NCBI GenBank assembly: GCA_028286485.1
Contig: JAQBRM010000030.1
Span: forward strand, 1-39,544
Length of the DNA stretch: 39,544 nucleotides
DNA from: Candidatus Nomurabacteria bacterium
GTDB taxonomy: Bacteria > Patescibacteriota > Minisyncoccia > Phycocordibacterales > UBA9973
Direction: 5' to 3'
Shown here: in pieces, positions 23,589 through 34,363 of the stretch
Position numbering within the stretch: the stretch's first letter is position 1
How the letters are laid out: each line of letters starts with the position of its first letter
Position numbers and translations under genes: made by a program
The notes under the pieces: generated by a model
The model's input: only the letters and a program-made list of their open reading frames with translations
The model's database searches: none
Told to the model about the DNA's origin: nothing

Positions 23589-25775
23589 ATGGCAAAGAAA
23601 CAATTCCCCAAGAAACAAGCTCCGCAAAAGAATCCGCCGCGCAACAACCACGTAGTCATCGGGCTACTGCTTATTTTGCTGGGATTGATCACATTAGGAG
23701 GAATCATTGGCACGGCAGGGGTAGCGGGGTTTGTGGTCGCTCAAGGCGCTGATGTGCTTTTGGGTACCGGCAAGTTCATTATTCCCATTATTTTCATTAC
23801 CGCCGGGGTATTAGTCATGCGTAAACGCAGCCTCGATGCGACCACGCGGGAAATCATTACCGGCACACTGGGACTACTGGCATTATTGACGCTACTCTCT
23901 TTATATAATGACAGTTGGGGTGGTTTAGTCGGTCATTTGCTGGCTACACCATTACTGGGTACCTTTGATATCCTCTTTACCACGCTTATCTTGATGTTTA
24001 TTACTGCTACCTCATTTATTCTCTTTTTCGATCGTACACCCAACCTTTTCCCCTTCTTCAGTATGTTGGTGGCCCGTATTCGCGCCCTGTTCACCAAGAA
24101 GGAGCCTTCGTATGAAGTTGAGACCACGATGGATGAACCGACAGAAGACTACCTTCCGGCCACTGCTCCAATGATGCCAGAAAAAAGTGTTGAGCAACCA
24201 AAGACGCCGAAAGAACTGACCGTCAATGATGCCTCAGTTGGTGGTGAGCTCATTATCGATCCCAAGAAGCGCGCCTCATTCGGCACCTATACTCCTCCCC
24301 CCTTGAGCCTGCTTGAAGGTGACCGCGGCAAGGCGAACGTCGGTGATGTCAAAGCCAATGCCAACATTATTCGTCGCACCCTCATGAACTTCGGCATTGA
24401 GGTGGAAATGGATGAAGTCACCATCGGACCGACCGTCACGCGCTATGCCTTGAAGCCCGCTCAAGGAGTGAAGCTGTCCCGTATTGTCGGCTTGCAGAGT
24501 GACTTGGCCTTGGCCTTGGCTGCTCATCCGATCCGTATCGAGGCGCCGATCCCCGGCAAGAGTTTGGTGGGTATTGAAATCCCGAACAAGACCAAAGCAA
24601 CGGTTGGTTTGGCCAGCCTGCTGTCTGACCCTTCATTTGCCCAAGACAAGAAGCCTCTCGTGGCTGCCTTGGGCCGAAATATTGCCGGCAAGCCCGTGTT
24701 GAAAAGCATTGCCAAGATGCCACACTTGCTCATCGCCGGTACGACCGGCTCCGGTAAGTCAGTTACTATTCACGCCATCATTACATCGCTCCTCTATCGC
24801 CATGGGCCGGATCAGCTGCGATTTATTTTTGTGGACCCGAAGCGTGTTGAGCTCACGCTCTACAACTCTATTCCCCACCTCCTCACGCCGGTCATCACTG
24901 AACCGAAGAAAGCCATCCTCGCCTTGAAGTGGGCGGCAACGGAAATGAATCGCCGTTACGATATTCTCGAAGGTGAAAGTGTTCGTGATATTGATTCGTA
25001 TCATAAGTTGTACGAAAAGGAACTAGCAAAGCCTGAAACAACCCAGGACCGCATGCCATACATCGTCATCATCATTGATGAGTTGGCCGATATCATGCAA
25101 GCCTACCCTCGTGAACTCGAAGCCGCTATCGTGCGCTTGGCGCAAATGTCCCGCGCCGTCGGCATTCACCTTATTCTCTCCACCCAACGTCCGGAAGTGA
25201 ATATCATTACCGGCCTTATCAAGGCCAACGTGCCGTCCCGTATCGCCCTTCGTGTGCCGACAGGCATCGACTCCCGTACCATTCTGGATACCACTGGCGC
25301 CGAGAAACTATTGGGTCAAGGAGATATGCTGGCCGTAGTGGGGGGTGACAGCCAGGCAGAACGATTGCAGAGTGCATATATCACTGAAGACGAGGTCAAA
25401 AATGTGGTAAAATACCTCAAGAACGCATTCAAAGATGATGTACGAGATACCATTGAACTGAGCGGTACCGTAGGCGGTGGAGGCGACAAAACCATCTTCG
25501 GAGCCGACATTGGTGACGAAGAAGACGATGAACTGTATGAGGAAGCCCGCACTTGCGTGATGGAAGCCGGCAAAGCCTCAACTTCCTATATTCAACGCAA
25601 GCTGAAAGTCGGCTATGCCCGCGCTGCCCGCCTGATCGACCTGCTCGAAGAACGCGGCATTGTCGGACCGGCTGATGGCGCCAAGCCTCGCGAAGTACTG
25701 ATTGGATCCCGCCCCGCCTCAATGGACACTGCGGGGCACGATTCTGCTGAATCGGACGCATCAGCGAACTACTAA
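23589..25775 (+). CDS. ftsK: DNA translocase FtsK/SpoIIIE
   Basis: N-terminal TMs; GPTVTRY, IRIEAPIPGKSLVGIEIPN, MPHLLIAGTTGSGKS, IIDELADIM, gamma domain STSYIQRKLKVGYARAARLID. Confidence 0.97.
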   Translation: MAKKQFPKKQAPQKNPPRNNHVVIGLLLILLGLITLGGIIGTAGVAGFVVAQGADVLLGTGKFIIPIIFITAGVLVMRKRSLDATTREIITGTLGLLALLTLLSLYNDSWGGLVGHLLATPLLGTFDILFTTLILMFITATSFILFFDRTPNLFPFFSMLVARIRALFTKKEPSYEVETTMDEPTEDYLPATAPMMPEKSVEQPKTPKELTVNDASVGGELIIDPKKRASFGTYTPPPLSLLEGDRGKANVGDVKANANIIRRTLMNFGIEVEMDEVTIGPTVTRYALKPAQGVKLSRIVGLQSDLALALAAHPIRIEAPIPGKSLVGIEIPNKTKATVGLASLLSDPSFAQDKKPLVAALGRNIAGKPVLKSIAKMPHLLIAGTTGSGKSVTIHAIITSLLYRHGPDQLRFIFVDPKRVELTLYNSIPHLLTPVITEPKKAILALKWAATEMNRRYDILEGESVRDIDSYHKLYEKELAKPETTQDRMPYIVIIIDELADIMQAYPRELEAAIVRLAQMSRAVGIHLILSTQRPEVNIITGLIKANVPSRIALRVPTGIDSRTILDTTGAEKLLGQGDMLAVVGGDSQAERLQSAYITEDEVKNVVKYLKNAFKDDVRDTIELSGTVGGGGDKTIFGADIGDEEDDELYEEARTCVMEAGKASTSYIQRKLKVGYARAARLIDLLEERGIVGPADGAKPREVLIGSRPASMDTAGHDSAESDASANY
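25710..25759 (+). repeat. 50-bp double-hairpin element, copy 1 (in-frame in the ftsK C-terminal tail)
   Basis: cGCCCCGC-ctcaatggacact-GCGGGGCa followed by CGATTCTGCTGAATCGGACGC; the last 21 bp are identical to the reverse complement of 32060-32080. Confidence 0.85.
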
Positions 25776-25778
25776 AAT

Positions 25779-26186
25779 ATGAGAAAAATACAAAAAATGA
25801 TGGGAAAAATTACGCTTACTACTGTCTTGATCGGCACATTGGCTGCGGCTTTTCTTAGCCTCGTGGCCTATAACGTCAAAGATATCGCCTTCGGTACCCC
25901 ATTCACCGTACAAGCGGCCGCTGTCGATGGTGCAACGGTCAACGGCATGTTCATGCCGATCAGCGGCAGCACCAAGCATGCCCAGCAGATCACGATCAAT
26001 GGCCGCACCGTCGGTGTTGATCCTCAGGGCAACTTCAAGGATGGCGTCGTGCTCTCCCCCGGGTATAATATAGTGGAGGTTACAGAACGAGATCAATTTG
26101 GTAAAACAAAAACCGTAGCCTATCACTGGGTAGTAGCACCCTCCGTCTCAGTCGCTCAGAACGATGTCTCCCCTTATCAACGATAA
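25779..26186 (+). CDS. Membrane-anchored Ig-like domain protein
   Basis: N-terminal TM; [18 protein letters not shown]...[25 protein letters not shown] is a bacterial Ig-fold pattern. Confidence 0.7.
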
Positions 26187-26200
26187 TCCTTTTAAACCGT

Positions 26201-27322
26201 ATGGCAAAAAAATCAACACCGAAAGAACATAACGCTTCCATCGAAGATACGATCAAATCAATTCAAACCAAATTTGGCGAAGGCGCCATCATGAAGCTCG
26301 GCGAAACACCGAAGGTAGCAATCGCGGCTGTCCCTACCGGCTCTATCGGCTTGGACATTGCGCTTGGTATCGGTGGCTTGCCTCGTGGCCGTATCATTGA
26401 AATATTCGGACCGGAATCATCCGGTAAGACGACGCTGGCACTGCACGTCGTGGCAGAAGCCCAAAAGCTGGGTGGTGTCTGTGCCTATATTGATGCAGAA
26501 CACGCCATGGATCCCGACTACGCCGCAAATATTGGCGTCAAAATCAATGAACTGCTCATTTCCCAACCAGACACTGGTGAACAAGGACTTGAGATTACCG
26601 AAAGTTTGGTACGTAGTGGCAAAATTGATGTCATTGTTATTGACTCAGTGGCTGCCCTCACTCCGAAAGATGAAATTGAGGGAGACATGGGTGCACAGCA
26701 CATGGGCAAGCAAGCTCGTCTGATGTCACAAGCCCTTCGTAAGCTGACCGCTATTGTTGCTCGATCAAACACGATTGTGATTTTCATCAACCAAATCCGC
26801 ATGCAGATCGGTGTGATGTTTGGTAATCCCGAAACCACTCCGGGCGGCAAGGCTTTGAAGTTCTACACGTCCGTGCGTTTGGATATTCGTCGTATCGCAC
26901 AAATTAAGAAAGGTGAAGAAGTTGTCGGCTCCCGTACCCGTGTGAAGGTGGTGAAGAACAAAGTCGCTGCCCCATTCAAGCAAACAGAGTTCGATATCAT
27001 CTATGGTGAAGGTATTTCCCTCGAAGGTGAACTCTTGGCATTAGGTGAAAGCCTTGGTGTGATCAAGAAGAGTGGTACTTCCTATTCATACATTCCGACC
27101 AACCCACCGAAAGTATCCGCCGCTAAGCCTGCCAAGAAAGGTAAGGGTGATGAATCCCCTGCTGAAGACGGCGAAGTAGGAGCAGATGGTGAAGTGAAGC
27201 TCGGCCGTGGCTACGATGCCTCCCGTATCTTCATGCGTGAAAATACCAAAATCCGCGACCATATCGAGAAAGATATTCGTAAGCGCATGAAAGAAGTAGT
27301 CATGAGCAGCTCCGTAGAGTAA
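26201..27322 (+). CDS. recA: Recombinase RecA
   Basis: [57 protein letters not shown]. Confidence 0.99.
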
Positions 27323-27342
27323 TCCCCTTCTTTTTATAAGCT

Positions 27343-27386
27343 AAAAAAGCAATACCTCTGTAGAATATTCTGGGTATTGCTTTTTT
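27343..27386 (+). terminator. Intrinsic terminator after recA
   Basis: AAAAAAGCAATACC...GGTATTGCTTTTTT inverted repeat with U-tract. Confidence 0.75.
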
Positions 27387-27432
27387 GTTGTTTTGTGTTA
27401 TTGTTATAAAAAATCACAAAAACACATTAATA

Positions 27433-27999
27433 ATGAGAAACGATATGACTGCGGATTTTAAAGCCCGCTACCCTGCTATTGCCCAATATGTTGATATTGT
27501 GTTGGAAACACCACGGGAATTCTACATGTATAACGCCACTGTAACCATTGAAGAGGCGTTCAAAAATGCGCTCATCGAAGACCCTGCAATAGAAGCGTTC
27601 GAGATATCCGCCTTGGGAAGCATTGCCGAATGGTTGGAATGGTTTATCTTCGCTGATAATCTGTCTCATAATGGACGTATTACGTTTGAGATAGAAACAC
27701 TTAAGAAGGAAGAACATGCCGCCTTACGCGCAATCGTGCAAAAGAACAAGGTACGGCGCAATCCTATGAATCAACTGCAAACGTTTTTGCTTGATGAACA
27801 CATAGGAAATCACAGTATTATCATACACGATAACAATCGCCGGCTTTTGGAAAAATTAGTGAAAACTATTACCCCCGAAAAAGGCCACCCTCATAGTGCC
27901 TACGATGAATTCGATAATAAGAGAAAAGTCCATTATGTAGGACTTTTTGCAGCAGTGATCAGAAGTATCTGCCTTGATTACATCAAATCGAAAGAGTAA
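27433..27999 (+). CDS. Hypothetical protein
   Basis: 188-aa open frame between two terminators; no recognised motif. Confidence 0.6.
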   Translation: MRNDMTADFKARYPAIAQYVDIVLETPREFYMYNATVTIEEAFKNALIEDPAIEAFEISALGSIAEWLEWFIFADNLSHNGRITFEIETLKKEEHAALRAIVQKNKVRRNPMNQLQTFLLDEHIGNHSIIIHDNNRRLLEKLVKTITPEKGHPHSAYDEFDNKRKVHYVGLFAAVIRSICLDYIKSKE

Positions 28000-28002
28000 C
28001 AC

Positions 28003-28027
28003 AAAGCCTCCCTTGGGAGGCTTTTTT
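28003..28027 (+). terminator. Intrinsic terminator
   Basis: AAAGCCTCCC-TT-GGGAGGCTTTTTT just after the stop at 27999. Confidence 0.8.
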
Positions 28028-28029
28028 AT

Positions 28030-28058
28030 TGGACAATTGTCCCCTATTCGGCTACAAT
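28030..28058 (+). promoter_or_regulatory. Putative efp promoter
   Basis: TGGACA-N17-TACAAT, 8 nt before the ATG; contains the palindrome GGACAATTGTCC (28031-28042). Confidence 0.6.
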
Positions 28059-28066
28059 CGAGACCT

Positions 28067-28648
28067 ATGGCAATGCTTGAATATAACGAGATCCGCGAAC
28101 GAAAAATCATTCTCTGGGAAGGCGAGCCCTATGAAGTCATTACCAGTCATGTCTTCCGCAAACAGCAGCGCAAGCCGGTCAATGCAACCAAGATCAAGAA
28201 TCTCATCACCGGCCGCGTGGCGGAAATCTCCTTCGGCTCATCCGAAAAGGTGCATGAAGCGGACATGATCAGCCGCCCGGCGATCTTCCTGTACAAAGCC
28301 AAGGGCGAAGTCTGGCTGTGCGATGCCAAGGACAAGAGCCAGCGCTTTTCATTGAAGGAGGATATTGTCGGCGACAAGCTGAAGTACATCAAGGATAACA
28401 GTGAAGTTGACCTGATCATTTTCACCAATGACGATGATGAAGAGCAGGTTATTGGCGTGAAGGTACCGATCAAAGTAGAGTTGGAAATTACCGAAGCTCC
28501 TCCGGTCATCAAAGGTGCCAGTGCCAACACCGGCAACAAGGTGGTCACGCTCGAAAACGGCGCGACCATCAACGCTCCCCTTTTCGTCGCTGCCGGCGAC
28601 CGCATCCGCATCAACACTGAGACAGGTGAGTATGTCGAGCGCGCGTAA
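28067..28648 (+). CDS. efp: Elongation factor P
   Basis: GEPYEV, KIKNLITGR, VELEITEAPPVIKG, KVVTLENGATINAPLFV..GDRIRINTETGEYVERA; start ATG 28067. Confidence 0.93.
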   Translation: MAMLEYNEIRERKIILWEGEPYEVITSHVFRKQQRKPVNATKIKNLITGRVAEISFGSSEKVHEADMISRPAIFLYKAKGEVWLCDAKDKSQRFSLKEDIVGDKLKYIKDNSEVDLIIFTNDDDEEQVIGVKVPIKVELEITEAPPVIKGASANTGNKVVTLENGATINAPLFVAAGDRIRINTETGEYVERA

Positions 28649-28666
28649 GCTACACTCGTCTAACCC

Positions 28667-28711
28667 CAAAACAAAAAGCCGATTCCCTTTGGGAATCGGC
28701 TTTTTGTTTTG
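28667..28711. terminator. Bidirectional terminator between efp and rpsR
   Basis: CAAAACAAAAAGCCGATTCCC-TTT-GGGAATCGGCTTTTTGTTTTG perfect 21-bp IR between convergent genes. Confidence 0.9.
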
Positions 28712-28912
28712 TTAGTTTACGATAAACGGCAAGAGTGCCATGAATCGTGAGCGCTTTACGGCTTCGGCCAGAGAACGTTGGTTCTTGGCACTGAGACCGG
28801 TGCGGCGACGAGACAGGATACGGCCATTCGGGTTCAAAAACCGTTTAAGGTTTTCTACATCCTTGTAGTCGATAAACTGAATGTTGTTTGAATTAAAGTA
28901 ATCGTTTTTCAT
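28712..28912 (-). CDS. rpsR: 30S ribosomal protein S18
   Basis: [13 protein letters not shown]...[28 protein letters not shown]. Confidence 0.97.
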
Positions 28913-28917
28913 ATGAA

Positions 28918-29394
28918 TTAGAATGGAATGTCTTCAAGGTTTATTTCTTCATCGGGATACTCAATGGTATCAAGATCAGCCGGAGCGCTCTTTTGAGGAG
29001 CCTCTCCGTCACTGATACCGCTGGCGGACTGGGGAGCAGTATTACTGTACCCTCCGGTCGCGCCGCCCGGCTTCGGGCCGAACTGGAATGTATCGATAAC
29101 GATTTCAGTACGGTAGTTTTTCTTGCCGTCCTGGCCATCCCAGCTGCGTGTCTGAATGCGGCCTTCTACGAACAGTGAGCTGCCCTTGCGAGCATACTGA
29201 GCGAGGTTCTCCGCCTGACGTCCAAATGACACAAGGTTGTGGTATTCGGTCGCTTCTTGGCGAGCGCCAGCCTGATCTTTCCAGACGCGGTTGGTAGCAA
29301 GCGCAATGCTGGCTACCTTGCTGCCTGAAGGCAATGCCTTCAATTCAGGATCGCGGGTAAGGTTACCGATGAGAAATACTTTGTTGAGATACAT
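28918..29394 (-). CDS. ssb: Single-stranded DNA-binding protein
   Basis: [31 protein letters not shown]-terminal EDIPF. Confidence 0.98.
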
Positions 29395-31764: not shown

Positions 31765-33297
31765 CTATTTATCCAACCGATTGAATAACGGCTTCTCTGG
31801 ACTCTTTTTTTCTTTCACTAATGTAAGAATGGTCTGGGCAGTATTTGGCATAAATGGTTGGAGGAGGAAGCCGATGATGTATAAACGGATCGCGAGATCT
31901 CCAACAATGCGTTGTGCTTCCGGCATGTCGGTTTTGGCCAGCTTGAACGGTTCCTTGTTTTGAATCAGCCAGTCGAGAGAATTTATTTCCCGCCAAATAT
32001 CATCCATAGCGGACTTCAAATCAAAACTTTCTATTTTCTGCGCAAATCCTTCCGGCACCGCGTCCGATTCAGCAGAATCGCGTCGCGTGGTGTCAATTGA
32101 AACGCGACGTTCTAGTAGGTCTTCATCAGTCGGCAGCAGGTAGGACACTTCATAACTCACCACCATTTTCATGATGCGTGAGACTAGGTTGCCCAGACCA
32201 TTGCAAAGATTTGCCGTATAAGCTTCAGCCAGTGATTCCAATGTCATGTCGGCATCTTCAAAAGAGTTCATGTGTCGTAGCAAGTAGTATCGCAAGACAT
32301 CACTGGCCAAATCCCCCGCCACTGCTTGGTATGCTTCAATAACAGCATAGGGATTGATAACATTACCAATTGACTTGGACATTTTTTCTCCGCCGGAATT
32401 AATGAAGCCGTTCACCACAATATGCGCGCTGTTCGGCAGATCAGCTGCAATGAGCATCGCTTGCCACATGGATGATTGCTGGCGGGTATTATCCTTGCCG
32501 CAGTACTGCACAGGTGTACCATTCGTCCAATACTTTTCAAATGTCTCTGTGTTTTCGGGCCAGCCGAGAGTGGAGATGTAGTTCACCAAGGCATCAAACC
32601 AGACATACATGACCTGCGTCTCATCATCCGGCACCGGTACGCCCCACGGCATCTTTTCCGCCACTCGGGAAATAGAAAAATCATGCAATCCGTTTTTAAG
32701 GAATGATTTCATCTCATTGTATCGAAAGTCCGGAATAATAAAATCGGGATGACTATCATAAAACGCTTGCAGCTTGTCTGCCAGTTTCGAATACGCGAAG
32801 AAGTAATTCTCTTCATTGATGTACTCCACCGGTCGTCCGGTGTGAATCAAACAACAATCGTTCTCATCAACTTCCGAGTCTGTTTTTTCCAATTCACAGC
32901 CCGTACAGTACTTTGTCTGATACTGCTTTTTATAAATGTAGCCATTGTCATTAACCTTTTGCCAGAAGGCTTGCGCGGCTGCCACGTGATGCGTATCAGT
33001 AGTACGGATGAAATGTACTTGTGGTGTGATATTCAATAATTCGGCCAAGCCGCGAAACCTCTCCGCGTATCGATCCACATATTCTTGTACGGGAATACCT
33101 TCTTTTTCAGCCGCTTTGTAGAGCTTGGCACCGTGTTCATCGGTACCGGTATTGAAAAAGACATCATAGCCTTGCAGTATTTTGTATCGTGCCACGACAT
33201 CGGCCCGGATGAACTCCATGGCAAAACCAACGTGCGGATCGGCATTCACGTACGGCAAGGTCGTCGTTATATAAAATGGTTTCTGATTGTCCGGCAT
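31765..33297 (-). CDS. metG: Methionyl-tRNA synthetase (short form, no C-terminal tRNA-binding domain)
   Basis: FYITTTLPYVNADPHVGF, TGTDEHG, YVWFDAL, KMSKS; start ATG 33297. Confidence 0.97.
   Translation of the reverse strand: MPDNQKPFYITTTLPYVNADPHVGFAMEFIRADVVARYKILQGYDVFFNTGTDEHGAKLYKAAEKEGIPVQEYVDRYAERFRGLAELLNITPQVHFIRTTDTHHVAAAQAFWQKVNDNGYIYKKQYQTKYCTGCELEKTDSEVDENDCCLIHTGRPVEYINEENYFFAYSKLADKLQAFYDSHPDFIIPDFRYNEMKSFLKNGLHDFSISRVAEKMPWGVPVPDDETQVMYVWFDALVNYISTLGWPENTETFEKYWTNGTPVQYCGKDNTRQQSSMWQAMLIAADLPNSAHIVVNGFINSGGEKMSKSIGNVINPYAVIEAYQAVAGDLASDVLRYYLLRHMNSFEDADMTLESLAEAYTANLCNGLGNLVSRIMKMVVSYEVSYLLPTDEDLLERRVSIDTTRRDSAESDAVPEGFAQKIESFDLKSAMDDIWREINSLDWLIQNKEPFKLAKTDMPEAQRIVGDLAIRLYIIGFLLQPFMPNTAQTILTLVKEKKSPEKPLFNRLDK
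32060..32109 (-). repeat. 50-bp double-hairpin element, copy 2 (in-frame in metG)
   Basis: Minus strand CGTCGCGT-ttcaattgacacc-ACGCGACG-CGATTCTGCTGAATCGGACGC; same geometry as the copy in ftsK. Confidence 0.85.
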
Positions 33298-33298
33298 G

Positions 33299-34363
33299 TT
33301 AGTCGAGGGTATTGTTAGTGGTGATAGGCACCAATTTTTCCTTTTCCACATCACTGAGGTATTCCAAAATAAAGACCGCTACCGGAATGGCGATCAGCGC
33401 GCCCCAGAATCCCGCCACCGTAATGCCGAATAAGAATGAGAGCAGCACGACCAATGGTGGAATGCCGACAGTGCGATGCGCCACGACCGGACTGAGCACA
33501 TAGTTCTCGATCTGCTGCGCTACGATATAGAAAATAAATACCTTCAATCCCAGCAATGCTCCTCCATCAATGACAGCAAATAGCACAGCGGGTACAGCGG
33601 CAAAATAAATACCGAACGGCACCAACTCAGCAATCCCGCTGATCACACCGATCAAGAATGCGTACTGCACACCGAGCAATGCCAAGACTACTGTCACAAT
33701 GGCCCCGATGATCAATCCCAGCATCAATTGTCCTTTGAACCACAAGCCAATCTTATGCTGCGTGCGATGCCACAAACTAATGACATAGCGTTCGTGTTTC
33801 AATGGTGTGAGAATGCGGAGAAATGATTCAATACCCTTCTCTTGAATAGACAGATAGAATGACATGACCGTCACCAATACTACATCCACCAAGCCGCCAA
33901 ACGTAGTGCCGATGACCGTTGTCGCTCCTTGCGAAAGATTACCGGTAGCATTTTTTATGCTACCCAAGATATCGGCAAACGAGGCGTGCTGCGTGATGCT
34001 GGCCACGAACTGTGTGGCACTTTGAATGGATTGATTAGTCACCGTCGGCGTATTCGGCAAGTACTGCAAGAGCGCCGTCAGCAACCCCGACAATTCCCGA
34101 ATCATAACCGGTACGAAGGTATAGAAAAGGGTGGCCAAAATCCCCACCACGACCAAGAAAATAAGCGGTACGGACAGTGTGCGGTCAATGCCGTGCTCCT
34201 TGAACATGCGTACCCAGGCCTCCACAAACGATGCAATGACGATGGACACAATGACGAGCAAGAGGATATTGCGGACTTCAAATAGGATAACGACTGCCCC
34301 TATCAGCAAAATACCCCGAATCATGGTATCGGTGCTGATTCTGATTAATCGGGAGTCACTCAT
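33299..34363 (-). CDS. AI-2E family (PerM) transporter
   Basis: Multi-TM; WFKGQL, AELVPFG, QQIENYVLSP, GFWGALIAIPVA. Confidence 0.92.
   Translation of the reverse strand: MSDSRLIRISTDTMIRGILLIGAVVILFEVRNILLLVIVSIVIASFVEAWVRMFKEHGIDRTLSVPLIFLVVVGILATLFYTFVPVMIRELSGLLTALLQYLPNTPTVTNQSIQSATQFVASITQHASFADILGSIKNATGNLSQGATTVIGTTFGGLVDVVLVTVMSFYLSIQEKGIESFLRILTPLKHERYVISLWHRTQHKIGLWFKGQLMLGLIIGAIVTVVLALLGVQYAFLIGVISGIAELVPFGIYFAAVPAVLFAVIDGGALLGLKVFIFYIVAQQIENYVLSPVVAHRTVGIPPLVVLLSFLFGITVAGFWGALIAIPVAVFILEYLSDVEKEKLVPITTNNTLD

What the first reader, a model, noticed from the sequence alone, without database searches (positions are those of the whole stretch)
25710..25759. A 50-bp covarying double-hairpin element sits in-frame inside two unrelated housekeeping genes (ftsK copy)
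Seen: ftsK 25710-25759 (+) and metG 32109-32060 (-) share one architecture: an 8-nt stem arm, a 13-nt loop yTCAATkGACACy, the second arm, then an identical 21 bp CGATTC-TGCT-GAATCG-GACGC forming a second hairpin. The first stems differ at three base pairs and each change is compensated (C-G to T-A, C-G to G-C, C-G to T-A), which points to selection on nucleic-acid structure rather than protein. Both copies are on the sense strand and in the same frame (RPASMDTAGHDSAESDA vs RRVSIDTTRRDSAESDA). Established: Rickettsia palindromic elements insert in-frame into ORFs, and REPs are mobilised by HUH (RAYT/TnpA) enzymes. Inference: this is a possibly undescribed mobile or regulatory hairpin family that colonises coding sequences and adds DSAESDA peptides to proteins.
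Basis: partly seen in the sequence, partly recalled or inferred. Interest (0 to 1): 0.85.

Follow-up and report, generated by a model that had tools for sequence, protein, structure and literature searches.

The report
Tiny two-hairpin repeat inside housekeeping genes
The two look-alike 50-base stretches in ftsK and metG are copies of a small, two-hairpin DNA repeat family of ultra-small (Patescibacteria) bacteria that sits in frame inside essential genes as an extra 15-residue loop, much like the "selfish DNA in genes" of Rickettsia.

Summary
The ftsK and metG copies share an identical 21-mer (0 expected by chance). A covariance model built from them finds four copies in this genome, also in leuS and ileS. 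It finds 67 aligned copies in 19 genomes plus two metagenome contigs. Both stems covary strongly: 97.6% of 871 pair cells are paired, 12 of 13 pairs change on both sides, and 0 of 500 shuffles reach this. The core is 45 nt, or 15 codons. All 25 clear sense-strand coding copies use one frame, giving G/R-R-A/V-S-M-D-G-T-R-H-D-S-A-E-S. All four sites in this genome are empty in its closest relatives. In AT-richer relatives many copies are intergenic. Twelve put a start codon exactly one base after hairpin 2, and some are nested in each other. No partner enzyme was found: Y1/HUH and small GIY-YIG genes exist but none is flanked by the element, and the richest genome (27 copies) has no Y1 gene. Best reading: a REP/RPE-like selfish hairpin repeat. 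It is a new family of a known kind. My five paper searches found no description in Patescibacteria, but this scan has already noted similar families on other DNA.

The parts
25710..25754 (+). ftsK copy, 45-nt core. Position 1 is C. Stem-1 5' arm 25711-25717 (GCCCCGC), 13-nt loop 25718-25730, 3' arm 25731-25737 (GCGGGGC), A 25738, hairpin 2 25739-25754 (CGATTC TGCT GAATCG). Read as RPASMDTAGHDSAES in the C-terminal tail of FtsK, after the gamma domain.
   Evidence: FtsK_gamma ends at residue 705; 74.9 bits, E 2.4e-17.
25755..25759 (+). GACGC. It is shared with the metG copy but not with the rest of the family. It probably corresponds to flank (D-A codons), not to the element.
   Evidence: ancestral GAT GCT GT at both sites; the last 3 alignment columns vary across the family.
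32065..32109 (-). metG copy, 45-nt core on the minus strand. Stem-1 arms 32108-32102 and 32088-32082, loop 32101-32089, hairpin 2 32080-32065. Read as RRVSIDTTRRDSAES in a loop of the anticodon-binding helical domain of MetRS.
   Evidence: 29 of 29 orthologues lack it; 74.2 bits; residues 416-429 pLDDT < 50, coil between helices.
32060..32064 (-). GACGC flank shared with the ftsK copy. Here it is aligned with the ancestral GAY GCN (D-A) codons of metG orthologues.
23589..25775 (+). ftsK (728 aa). Its genus-wide conserved tail ...VLIGGMKDAVSDxVAEDMGL* is replaced here by ...VLIGSRPASMDTAGHDSAESDASANY*. The next gene starts at 25779, 24 nt after hairpin 2.
31765..33354 (-). metG (529 aa as the longest ORF; the true start is probably at Met19). 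It carries the insert at residues about 415-431.

Best explanation
Both window copies belong to a low-copy family of a 45-nt, two-hairpin DNA repeat of Patescibacteria. An earlier scan note calls this genome Candidatus Nomurabacteria.

The unit is N + 7-bp GC-rich stem with a 13-nt loop (YTYAANNGACRNY) + one base + a 6-bp stem (YGATTY/RAATCR) with a 4-nt loop.

I read it as a REP/RPE-like selfish or near-neutral element that is copied to new places as DNA. The strict Watson-Crick stems are what the copying step needs.

Because the genomes are almost all coding, surviving copies sit in two kinds of place. One is in frame in surface loops or tails of proteins, where frame 1 gives a small, hydrophilic, disordered 15-residue peptide. 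The other is in the short spacers at gene boundaries.

Shown: the family, its structure, covariation, frame, empty sites, patchy distribution, nesting, and decay of some copies.

Inferred: that it moves, that it moves as DNA, and that the host does not need it. The enzyme or mechanism that copies it is unknown.
For: 1. Family size. There are 4 strong copies in the own genome and nothing between 58 and 15 bits. There are 17 copies in 9 of 51 genus genomes, 22 in 8 of 150 other order genomes, and 27 in one genome plus 1 in another of 150 other genomes sampled from the phylum. Two metagenome contigs also carry it.
2. Covariation. On 67 copies, 97.6% of 871 cells are paired, 12 of 13 pairs change on both sides (124 cells), 0 of 500 shuffles reach this, and slid controls give 23-54% paired.
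3. Recent gain. All four sites of this genome are empty in relatives. For metG, 29 of 29 loci are empty. For ftsK, 28 of 28 readable tails lack it. For leuS, 25 of 27 loci are empty. For ileS, 23 of 25 loci are empty. These include the closest relatives (80-84% MetRS identity). A contig of a relative about 89% identical in run X3 shows the empty metG allele.
4. No gene-specific role. There are about 20 different host genes and many unrelated gene junctions.
5. Nested and partial copies: L075, L144, L152, and L212/L218/L226/L228.
6. Copies within a genome are more alike than copies between genomes (0.765 against 0.730, permutation p 0.0005; pairs up to 98% identical).
7. Decay. The LeuRS copies of G073 and G024 have two mismatches each in stem 1, so the host does not keep the stem.
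8. Wobble pairs are not favoured. Among non-Watson-Crick cells there are G.T 6, A.C 11 and other 10. This is unlike typical structured RNAs.
9. The MetRS insert is a low-confidence coil between helices, and the FtsK copy lies beyond the last domain.
10. The same pattern is published for REPs: intragenic copies in repair genes and tRNA synthetases, and CGTC-type REPs without a dedicated transposase (PMC3733652; abstract and sections 6 and 15 read, plus passages from a term search).
Against: No transposition was seen and no target-site duplication or terminal inverted repeats were found.

No partner enzyme was found. Y1/HUH genes are in 6 of 9 carriers against 15 of 42 non-carriers in the genus, which is not significant. 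They are absent from G271 (27 copies) and G065 (3 near-identical copies). The four Y1 genes of this genome are bracketed by other palindromes. Small GIY-YIG genes are in nearly every genome of the genus, and none is flanked by the element.

Orientation is strongly biased towards the sense strand of the surrounding genes. There are 25 sense coding copies in one frame against 1 clear antisense copy (L116), although an antisense frame would also give a hydrophilic peptide. A selfish DNA model explains this only through a strand-specific copying step.

Twelve copies in 5 genomes place the ATG of an ORF of 60 or more codons exactly one base after hairpin 2. This precision suggests either a mechanism tied to start codons or a function.

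The same loop of LeuRS (3 genomes), IleRS (2), GatA (2) and RecA (2) is occupied in non-sister genomes. This requires either hot spots or selection.
Confidence: 0.65

Rival explanations
1. A cis-acting RNA element. The two hairpins would act in the mRNA, for example on translation initiation, intercistronic processing, or protection of the transcript. Copies at gene starts would be the functional form, and coding copies would be by-products.
For: About 88% of copies point the same way as the surrounding genes (my tally). Twelve copies have the start codon exactly 1 nt after hairpin 2 with no room for a Shine-Dalgarno sequence, including the rpoB-rpoC and rpsL-rpsG spacers. An in-frame (A/G)TG lies at the junction of the hairpins, 18 nt upstream of that ATG, and a purine-rich AAGGA/ATGGAC sits in loop 1.
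Against: No Rfam family matches. There is no recurrent gene association. G.U pairs are not favoured over A.C (6 against 11). The distribution is patchy: present in 18% of genus genomes, 5% of order genomes and about 1% of phylum genomes searched. Stems decay in some copies. Coding copies are out of frame with the internal ATG.
Confidence: 0.15
2. A DNA recognition motif for a site-specific single-strand nuclease or another DNA-binding protein, in the manner of Ssn nucleases with their NTS/SRM hairpin repeats. It might modulate DNA uptake or recombination. Its spread would follow from that interaction.
For: Strict Watson-Crick pairing without a wobble preference fits a DNA hairpin. 17 of 65 copies start with CGTC, and the antisense strand of the two window copies reads CGTC + 6-bp stem + 4-nt loop, the layout of CGTC-tagged REPs/NTS (PMC3733652 section 6; PMC11893778 section 6). 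Small stand-alone GIY-YIG genes of 80-130 aa are present in all five top carriers, with 8 in G271. Hosts are rich in DNA repair and tRNA-charging genes, as reported for REPs (PMC3733652 section 15).
Against: None of 10 GIY-YIG loci examined carries the element. The best hit is 11.2 bits, E 0.17, with filters off. Where inverted repeats bracket the gene they are different sequences. Small GIY-YIG genes occur in nearly every genome of the genus whether or not it carries the element. The element does not fit the published NTS consensus or the CGTC-family stem and loop sizes. Copy numbers are 1-27, not hundreds.
Confidence: 0.12
3. A selected peptide module. The 15-residue segment (..RxSMDGTRHDSAES) would be what matters, for example as a phospho-site or docking loop, and the nucleic-acid symmetry would be secondary.
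For: All 25 sense coding copies use one frame and give similar peptides.
Against: About 40 of 67 copies are not in coding sequence. One coding copy is read on the other strand (L116). Third-codon positions keep the pairing. Orthologues do without it. The MetRS insert is predicted disordered.
Confidence: 0.03
4. A one-off local duplication between ftsK and metG, or a chance resemblance, with no family behind it.
For: The exact 21-mer occurs only twice in the genome and in 0 of 60 relatives at up to 2 mismatches. The single hit in 185,579 species genomes lacks hairpin 1.
Against: The structure-aware model finds 65 further copies.
Confidence: 0.01

Closest known systems
Rickettsia palindromic elements (RPE; Ogata et al. 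2000/2002, recalled; mentioned in PMC3733652, which I read in part)
   Same: Palindromic repeats inserted in frame in housekeeping genes of a reduced genome. They are read through as extra peptide segments, are also found between genes, and have no known transposase.
   Different: RPE-1 is about three times longer (recalled). This element is 45 nt with two separate hairpins. It occurs in a different phylum. Sequence relatedness was not tested, because no RPE sequence was at hand.
REP elements of the GTAG and CGTC super-families, including intragenic REPs (Di Nocera, De Gregorio, Rocco 2013, PMC3733652)
   Same: Short GC-rich hairpin repeats. Some copies lie inside genes, notably DNA repair or replication genes and tRNA synthetases. 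Some lie at gene ends or starts. CGTC-type REPs have no dedicated transposase. 17 of 65 copies here begin with CGTC.
   Different: Published CGTC REPs have an unpaired tag, 8-9 bp stems starting with A-T pairs, 4-5 nt loops and a CCA tail, and are often dimers in high copy number (section 6). Here GTC is paired, stem 1 is 7 bp with a 13-nt loop, a second hairpin is an integral part, and there are 1-27 copies per genome.
Ssn nucleases with NTS/SRM hairpin repeats (Chenal et al. 2025, PMC11893778)
   Same: Dispersed hairpin repeats, with small stand-alone GIY-YIG genes present in the same genomes. Recognition at the DNA (single-strand) level would fit the strict pairing.
   Different: In the paper, ssnA genes are flanked by their repeats: 71% with at least one SRM (section 7). 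Here 0 of 10 GIY-YIG loci carry the element. The consensus differs and copy numbers are far lower.
Double-hairpin elements of Allomyces mitochondrial DNA, and GC clusters and 'byp' elements of yeast mitochondria (recalled; not read here)
   Same: Very small mobile elements made of one or two hairpins that also land in coding or rRNA regions of compact genomes.
   Different: Those are organellar and unrelated in sequence. Byp elements are skipped by the ribosome, whereas these copies are open in frame and presumably translated.
Other in-frame hairpin repeat families of Patescibacteria noted earlier by this scan (e1-710945, e1-1022884, e1-1291205, e1-4505036; start-codon families e1-1299072, e1-1045454, e1-4874923)
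   Same: The same phylum and the same habit: in frame in housekeeping genes, compensated stems, and some families abutting start codons.
   Different: No look-alike of this sequence is on record in the scan. Those families are single hairpins of 30-95 nt or TIR elements with a GIY-YIG gene. This one is a fixed two-hairpin 45-mer with one reading frame.

Membership tests
CGTC/GTAG-tagged REP super-families (PMC3733652) | Unpaired CGTC (or TGTC/CCTC) or GTAG tag at one end of a single stem-loop | tested here: not met
   17 of 65 copies start CGTC and 4 start TGTC, but G-T-C are the first three paired bases of stem 1. Only the two window copies and L138 read CGTC next to hairpin 2 on the other strand.
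CGTC/GTAG-tagged REP super-families (PMC3733652) | Stem of 8-9 bp beginning with A-T pairs, loop of 4-5 nt, short CCA-like tail | tested here: not met
   Stem 1 is 7 bp, GC-rich, with a 13-nt loop. Hairpin 2 is 6 bp with a 4-nt loop. There is no CCA tail (paper section 6).
REP-RAYT (REPtron) systems | A Y1/HUH transposase gene flanked by the repeat, and co-occurrence of the two | tested here: not met
   This genome has four Y1 genes, none near a copy, and three have other palindromes at their ends. In the genus, 6 of 9 carriers have Y1 against 15 of 42 non-carriers. G271 (27 copies) and G065 have none.
Ssn-related motifs (SRM/NTS) with ssnA (PMC11893778) | Repeat flanks a small GIY-YIG (cd10448) gene and matches the NTS-like consensus | tested here: not met
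   0 of 10 small GIY-YIG loci hold the element with filters off. Small GIY-YIG genes are near-ubiquitous in the genus. Membership of those genes in cd10448 was not tested.
Rickettsia palindromic elements | In-frame insertion in ORFs, read through as peptide | tested here: met
   25 sense coding copies are all open in one frame within ORFs of 163-808 codons.
Rickettsia palindromic elements | Sequence homology to an RPE family, and a length of about 100-150 bp | not tested
The length (45 nt) differs from the recalled RPE-1 length.
MITEs | Terminal inverted repeats and target-site duplication | tested here: inconclusive
   The two hairpins are internal and the ends are not inverted repeats of each other. 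No constant duplication was seen at 65 junctions. At ileS the 3' junction repeats GAATCG.
Any Rfam RNA family | Match to a curated covariance model | tested here: not met
   There are 0 matches in the window at gathering scores. Nothing matches at the elements of L075/L116 at E up to 1.

The most novel reading that the evidence does not exclude
The element is not just junk. It is a phylum-wide, enzyme-independent DNA hairpin that copies itself by hairpin-driven template switching into a few structurally permissive hot spots: the same loops of LeuRS, IleRS, GatA and RecA, its own loop, and position -1 of start codons. The start-codon form has been co-opted as a portable initiation or processing signal in bacteria that lack Shine-Dalgarno sequences at those genes. 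That would be a new propagation mechanism for REP-like DNA, and a new kind of translation start context.
Probability: 0.12. Interest if true: 0.8.

Novelty: new variant of a known kind. Interest (0 to 1): 0.55.

Why it matters
It shows that essential genes of a 0.56-Mb genome (FtsK, MetRS, LeuRS, IleRS; in relatives RecA, RuvC, UvrB, SMC, PheRS-beta, GatA) tolerate recent insertions of a structured 45-nt repeat.

It extends the RPE/intragenic-REP phenomenon to Patescibacteria with an unusually small, well-defined unit. The unit has clean covariation, so it can be modelled and searched.

It repeats the unexplained published bias of such repeats for DNA-repair genes and tRNA synthetases.

For annotation, the family explains odd loops and tails in these proteins, and false N-terminal extensions at gene starts.

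The copying mechanism of transposase-less hairpin repeats is an open question. A 45-nt unit with nested copies and recurrent sites is a convenient test case.

Tried and rejected
- **Exact or near-exact 21-mer searches.** The own genome gave only the two copies and 60 relatives gave none. Viral contigs gave none. 185,579 species genomes gave one hit without hairpin 1, taken as chance. A stricter metagenome pattern gave none. These searches nearly led to the wrong conclusion of 'two copies only'. The covariance model was needed.
- **Rfam.** No match.
- **Inversion between the two inverted window copies.** No joint links them. One low-depth opposite-strand joint (25715 to 29047, run X4, at 85% likeness) does not involve the metG copy.
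- **Ancestral FtsK tail as an old decayed copy.** Local alignment scores were not above shuffles (p 0.067 to 0.96). Rejected.
- **Sigma-70 promoter reading of loop 1 plus hairpin 2 giving leaderless mRNAs.** I checked by eye. The -10-like hexamer lacks the key A(-11), or its spacing to the ATG is wrong. Dropped, and not tested with a tool.
- **Hammerhead, pistol, twister or CRISPR-repeat resemblance.** Considered from memory only. No fit, and no Rfam hit.
- **Translational bypass (T4 gene 60 / byp-like).** Not needed, because every sense coding copy is open in frame.
- **Partner enzymes.** RVT_1 is found only in this genome, with 2 genes and none in four other carriers. The TnpB zinc-ribbon family was found in none. 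Y1_Tnp and GIY-YIG show no association or flanking.
- **Expression.** No RNA holder is listed for this DNA. It was therefore not assessed.
- **Earlier scan notes by sequence.** Nothing found.
- **Supplementary tables.** Those of PMC3733652 (list of intragenic REPs) and PMC11893778 (SRM lists) could not be seen. They might hold a related element.
Full report
**1. The observation**

The two stretches are as described. They share an identical 21-mer, with 2 matches in the window at up to 3 mismatches and none in 100 shuffles. Beyond the 50 nt the flanks are unrelated.
- In metG, stem 1 is 8 bp.
- Three pairs differ and are compensated.
- Folding energy alone is not unusual: z -1.85 and -0.58.
- Both copies lie on the sense strand and in the same frame of ftsK and metG.

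**2. From two copies to a family**

Exact-word searches suggested that nothing else existed:
- The 21-mer, at up to 3 mismatches, occurs only twice in the 559,536-base genome (88% complete).
- It occurs in 0 of 60 relatives and not in viral contigs.
- It occurs once in 185,579 species genomes, without hairpin 1.

An 18-mer scan of metagenome contigs gave 57 loci. Two of them had the whole architecture with further compensated stem changes:
- L116 lies on the antisense strand inside a Y-family polymerase gene.
- L075 lies in an AT-rich spacer, nested inside another copy.

A covariance model from these four sequences then found more copies:

| Search | Genomes with copies | Copies |
|---|---|---|
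| Own genome, new copies | leuS-type gene (C18:7592-7639), ileS-type gene (C9:1474-1521) | 2 (58.9 and 58.3 bits; next best hit 15 bits) |
| Genus | 9 of 51 | 17 |
| Order sample | 8 of 150 other genomes | 22 |
| Phylum sample (second model) | 2 of 150 other genomes | 27 in G271 (1.1 Mb, complete), 1 in G272 |

**3. Anatomy and covariation**

The aligned family (67 copies) has this consensus:
- one unpaired base;
- a 7-bp stem (GTCGCGY/RCGCGAC type);
- a 13-nt loop YTYAANNGACRNY;
- one base (mostly A);
- a 6-bp stem YGATTY/RAATCR with a 4-nt loop.

That is 45 nt. The three positions after it vary.

Of 871 pair cells, 97.6% are standard pairs, 12 of 13 pairs show changes on both sides (124 cells), and no shuffle of 500 reaches any of these values. 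Sliding the partner by 1-3 columns gives 23-54% pairing. On the first 41 copies there was no single-sided change at all.

Among the 27 non-Watson-Crick cells of the 67 copies, G.T/T.G number 6, A.C/C.A 11 and others 10. Wobble pairs, the usual signature of selection on an RNA helix, are therefore not favoured. Several mismatches sit in low-scoring copies (LeuRS of G073 and G024), which looks like decay.

**4. Where the copies sit**

- *In the genus:* all 17 copies lie in long ORFs, on the sense strand, with the codon phase starting at element base 1.
- *In the wider samples:* eight more clear coding copies use the same strand and phase.

The peptide is (G/R)R(A/V)S(M/K)D(G/T)(T/A)RHDSAES.

Host proteins confirmed by Pfam:
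- DNA handling: FtsK (twice, at different sites), RecA, RuvC, UvrB, SMC, an RNase_T-type exonuclease, uracil-DNA glycosylase.
- tRNA charging: MetRS, LeuRS, IleRS (two sites), PheRS beta, GatA.
- Others: MsrB, an epimerase, phosphoglycerate kinase, a methyltransferase.
- Two ORFs have no Pfam family.

That makes about 20 distinct sites. Fifteen of 21 are in DNA-handling or tRNA-charging proteins if the antisense L116 copy in a Y-family polymerase is counted. I did not test this enrichment formally.

The AlphaFold model of MetRS (30-sequence alignment, mean pLDDT 83.8) puts the insert in a coil with pLDDT below 50 between two helices of the anticodon-binding domain. In FtsK the copy follows the gamma domain.

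An automatic sort of 65 copies gave 24 sense coding, 21 start-adjacent, 18 other intergenic and 2 antisense. By hand, the ftsK copy, which that sort called start-adjacent, also counts as coding, and L142 and L152 are not convincingly antisense-coding.

Twelve copies in five genomes (G110, G115, G181, G041, G271) have the ATG of an ORF of 60 or more codons exactly one base after hairpin 2. They include the rpoB-rpoC and rpsL-rpsG spacers. There is no room there for a Shine-Dalgarno sequence. An in-frame (A/G)TG lies 18 nt upstream, at the junction of the hairpins. Other copies follow stop codons or precede terminators.

**5. Evidence of gain, nesting and turnover**

Empty sites in relatives:

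| Site | Loci examined | Without the insert | Notes |
|---|---|---|---|
| metG | 29 orthologous loci | 29 | They read LLEF-DDAVPE |
| ftsK | 28 readable tails of 29 loci | 28 | They carry a conserved tail ..GGMKDAVSDxVAEDMGL, replaced in this genome |
| leuS | 27 | 25 | Filled in this genome, in G024, and in G073 |
| ileS | 25 | 23 | |

In each case the closest relatives of this genome are empty, so all four copies are recent gains.

Public contigs of another study (X2, about 96% identical) span both window copies without gaps. A relative about 89% identical in X3 shows the empty metG allele.

The same loops of LeuRS, IleRS, GatA and RecA are occupied in genomes that are not each other's closest relatives. 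This points either to hot spots or to a narrow set of permissive sites.

Net length changes are +12 to +14 residues rather than +15, so a few native codons were lost or overwritten.

Nested and partial copies occur in L075, L144, L152 and repeatedly in G271, where they take the form half unit + full unit + extra half of hairpin 2.

Copies within a genome are more alike than copies between genomes (0.765 against 0.730, p 0.0005). The leuS and ileS copies here are 96% identical over the aligned element, the highest pair in this genome.

**6. Search for a partner enzyme**

- *Y1/HUH (Pfam Y1_Tnp):* This genome has four intact genes with HUH and Tyr motifs. None lies near a copy. Three have other palindromes at their ends, and the fourth is bracketed by 38-nt inverted repeats. 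An earlier scan note (e1-999077) had called the fourth a TIRtron. In the genus, Y1 genes occur in 6 of 9 carriers and 15 of 42 non-carriers. G271 with 27 copies and G065 with three near-identical copies have none.
- *Reverse transcriptases:* found only in this genome.
- *TnpB-type zinc ribbons:* found nowhere.
- *Small GIY-YIG genes:* A lead from earlier scan notes pointed to the Ssn paper. These genes are present in all five top carriers, but also in nearly every genome of the genus. None of 10 loci examined holds the element. Where inverted repeats bracket the gene they are different sequences.

No partner is identified.

**7. What it most likely is**

Several features fit a small selfish or near-neutral DNA hairpin repeat of the REP/RPE kind, filtered by selection to in-frame, hydrophilic, loop-compatible positions and to gene boundaries:
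- patchy, low-copy distribution;
- recent gains;
- nesting;
- within-genome similarity;
- decay of some stems;
- lack of wobble preference;
- lack of any gene-specific association.

Three things are not explained by that reading:
- the near-exclusive sense orientation;
- the single-base precision at start codons;
- the recurrent sites.

They keep two alternatives alive: an RNA-level role (15%) and a DNA recognition role in the manner of Ssn/NTS (12%). I give the selfish-repeat reading 0.65.

**8. Comparison with what is known**

Di Nocera et al. 2013 (PMC3733652; abstract and sections 6 and 15 read, plus passages from a term search) describe the following:
- GTAG- and CGTC-tagged REPs;
- CGTC REPs without a dedicated transposase.

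That is the same biology. However, this element fails their structural definition on tag pairing, stem length, loop length and tail, and it has an obligatory second hairpin.

Chenal et al. 2025 (PMC11893778; abstract and sections 6, 7 and 10 read) tie CGTC-type NTS repeats to Ssn GIY-YIG nucleases whose genes are flanked by the repeats. That flanking is not seen here.

RPEs, double-hairpin elements of Allomyces mitochondria and yeast GC clusters are cited from memory only.

Five full-text searches listed no paper describing such elements in Patescibacteria.

This scan has already recorded several other in-frame hairpin families in this phylum on other DNA and start-codon-abutting families. None matches this sequence.

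**9. Verdict**

It is a new family (a new variant) of a known kind. It has three unexplained features worth following: strict frame and strand, start-codon abutment, and recurrent sites.

Noticed in passing
G000 contigs C18:57006-57737(+), C29:14968-15702(+), C21:4965-5630(+), C26:2176-2901(-) (outside the window): There are four intact Y1/HUH (IS200/RAYT-like) genes of 221-244 codons in a 0.56-Mb genome. Three have their own short palindromes at both ends, each a different sequence. The C18 gene is bracketed by 38-nt inverted repeats and sits next to an 86-codon GIY-YIG gene (C18:57784-57999).
   Followed up: partly
window 25690-25775 compared with loci L034-L062: FtsK of this genus has a conserved C-terminal tail beyond the gamma domain (..GGMKDAVSDxVAEDMGL*), seen in most of 28 relatives. 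This genome has lost it to the element-bearing tail. The tail's function is unknown.
   Followed up: partly
L130 (G024:C85) and L133 (G008:C22), IleRS-type genes: The IleRS-type ORFs show a histidine-phosphatase (His_Phos_1) domain match of about 170 residues upstream of the last part of the catalytic domain, in the same open frame. This is either an inserted domain or a fused neighbour.
   Followed up: no
L159 (G121:C1), PheRS beta chain: The PheRS beta ORF carries an NlpC/P60 domain match (residues 352-415) directly before the element copy at residue about 413. This is an odd insertion in an aminoacyl-tRNA synthetase subunit.
   Followed up: no
G000:C9:1474-1521 (ileS copy), 3' junction: The last six bases of hairpin 2 (GAATCG) are directly repeated after the element. 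In G271 many copies are followed by an extra half of hairpin 2. This may be slippage, or a trace of the copying mechanism.
   Followed up: partly
G000 contigs C23:7351-7962 and C13:31386-31919: This tiny genome has two reverse-transcriptase (RVT_1) genes. Four other carrier genomes have none.
   Followed up: no
L269 (G110:C25:920-1234): A 106-codon open frame with a GIY-YIG match is bracketed by 23-nt inverted repeats that are 96% complementary. It looks like the small nuclease-carrying mobile elements noted elsewhere in this scan.
   Followed up: no
Host genes of coding copies across loci L121-L231: 15 of 21 coding sites lie in DNA repair, replication or segregation proteins or in tRNA-charging enzymes. 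This is the same unexplained bias published for intragenic REPs. It was not tested against gene length or abundance.
   Followed up: no
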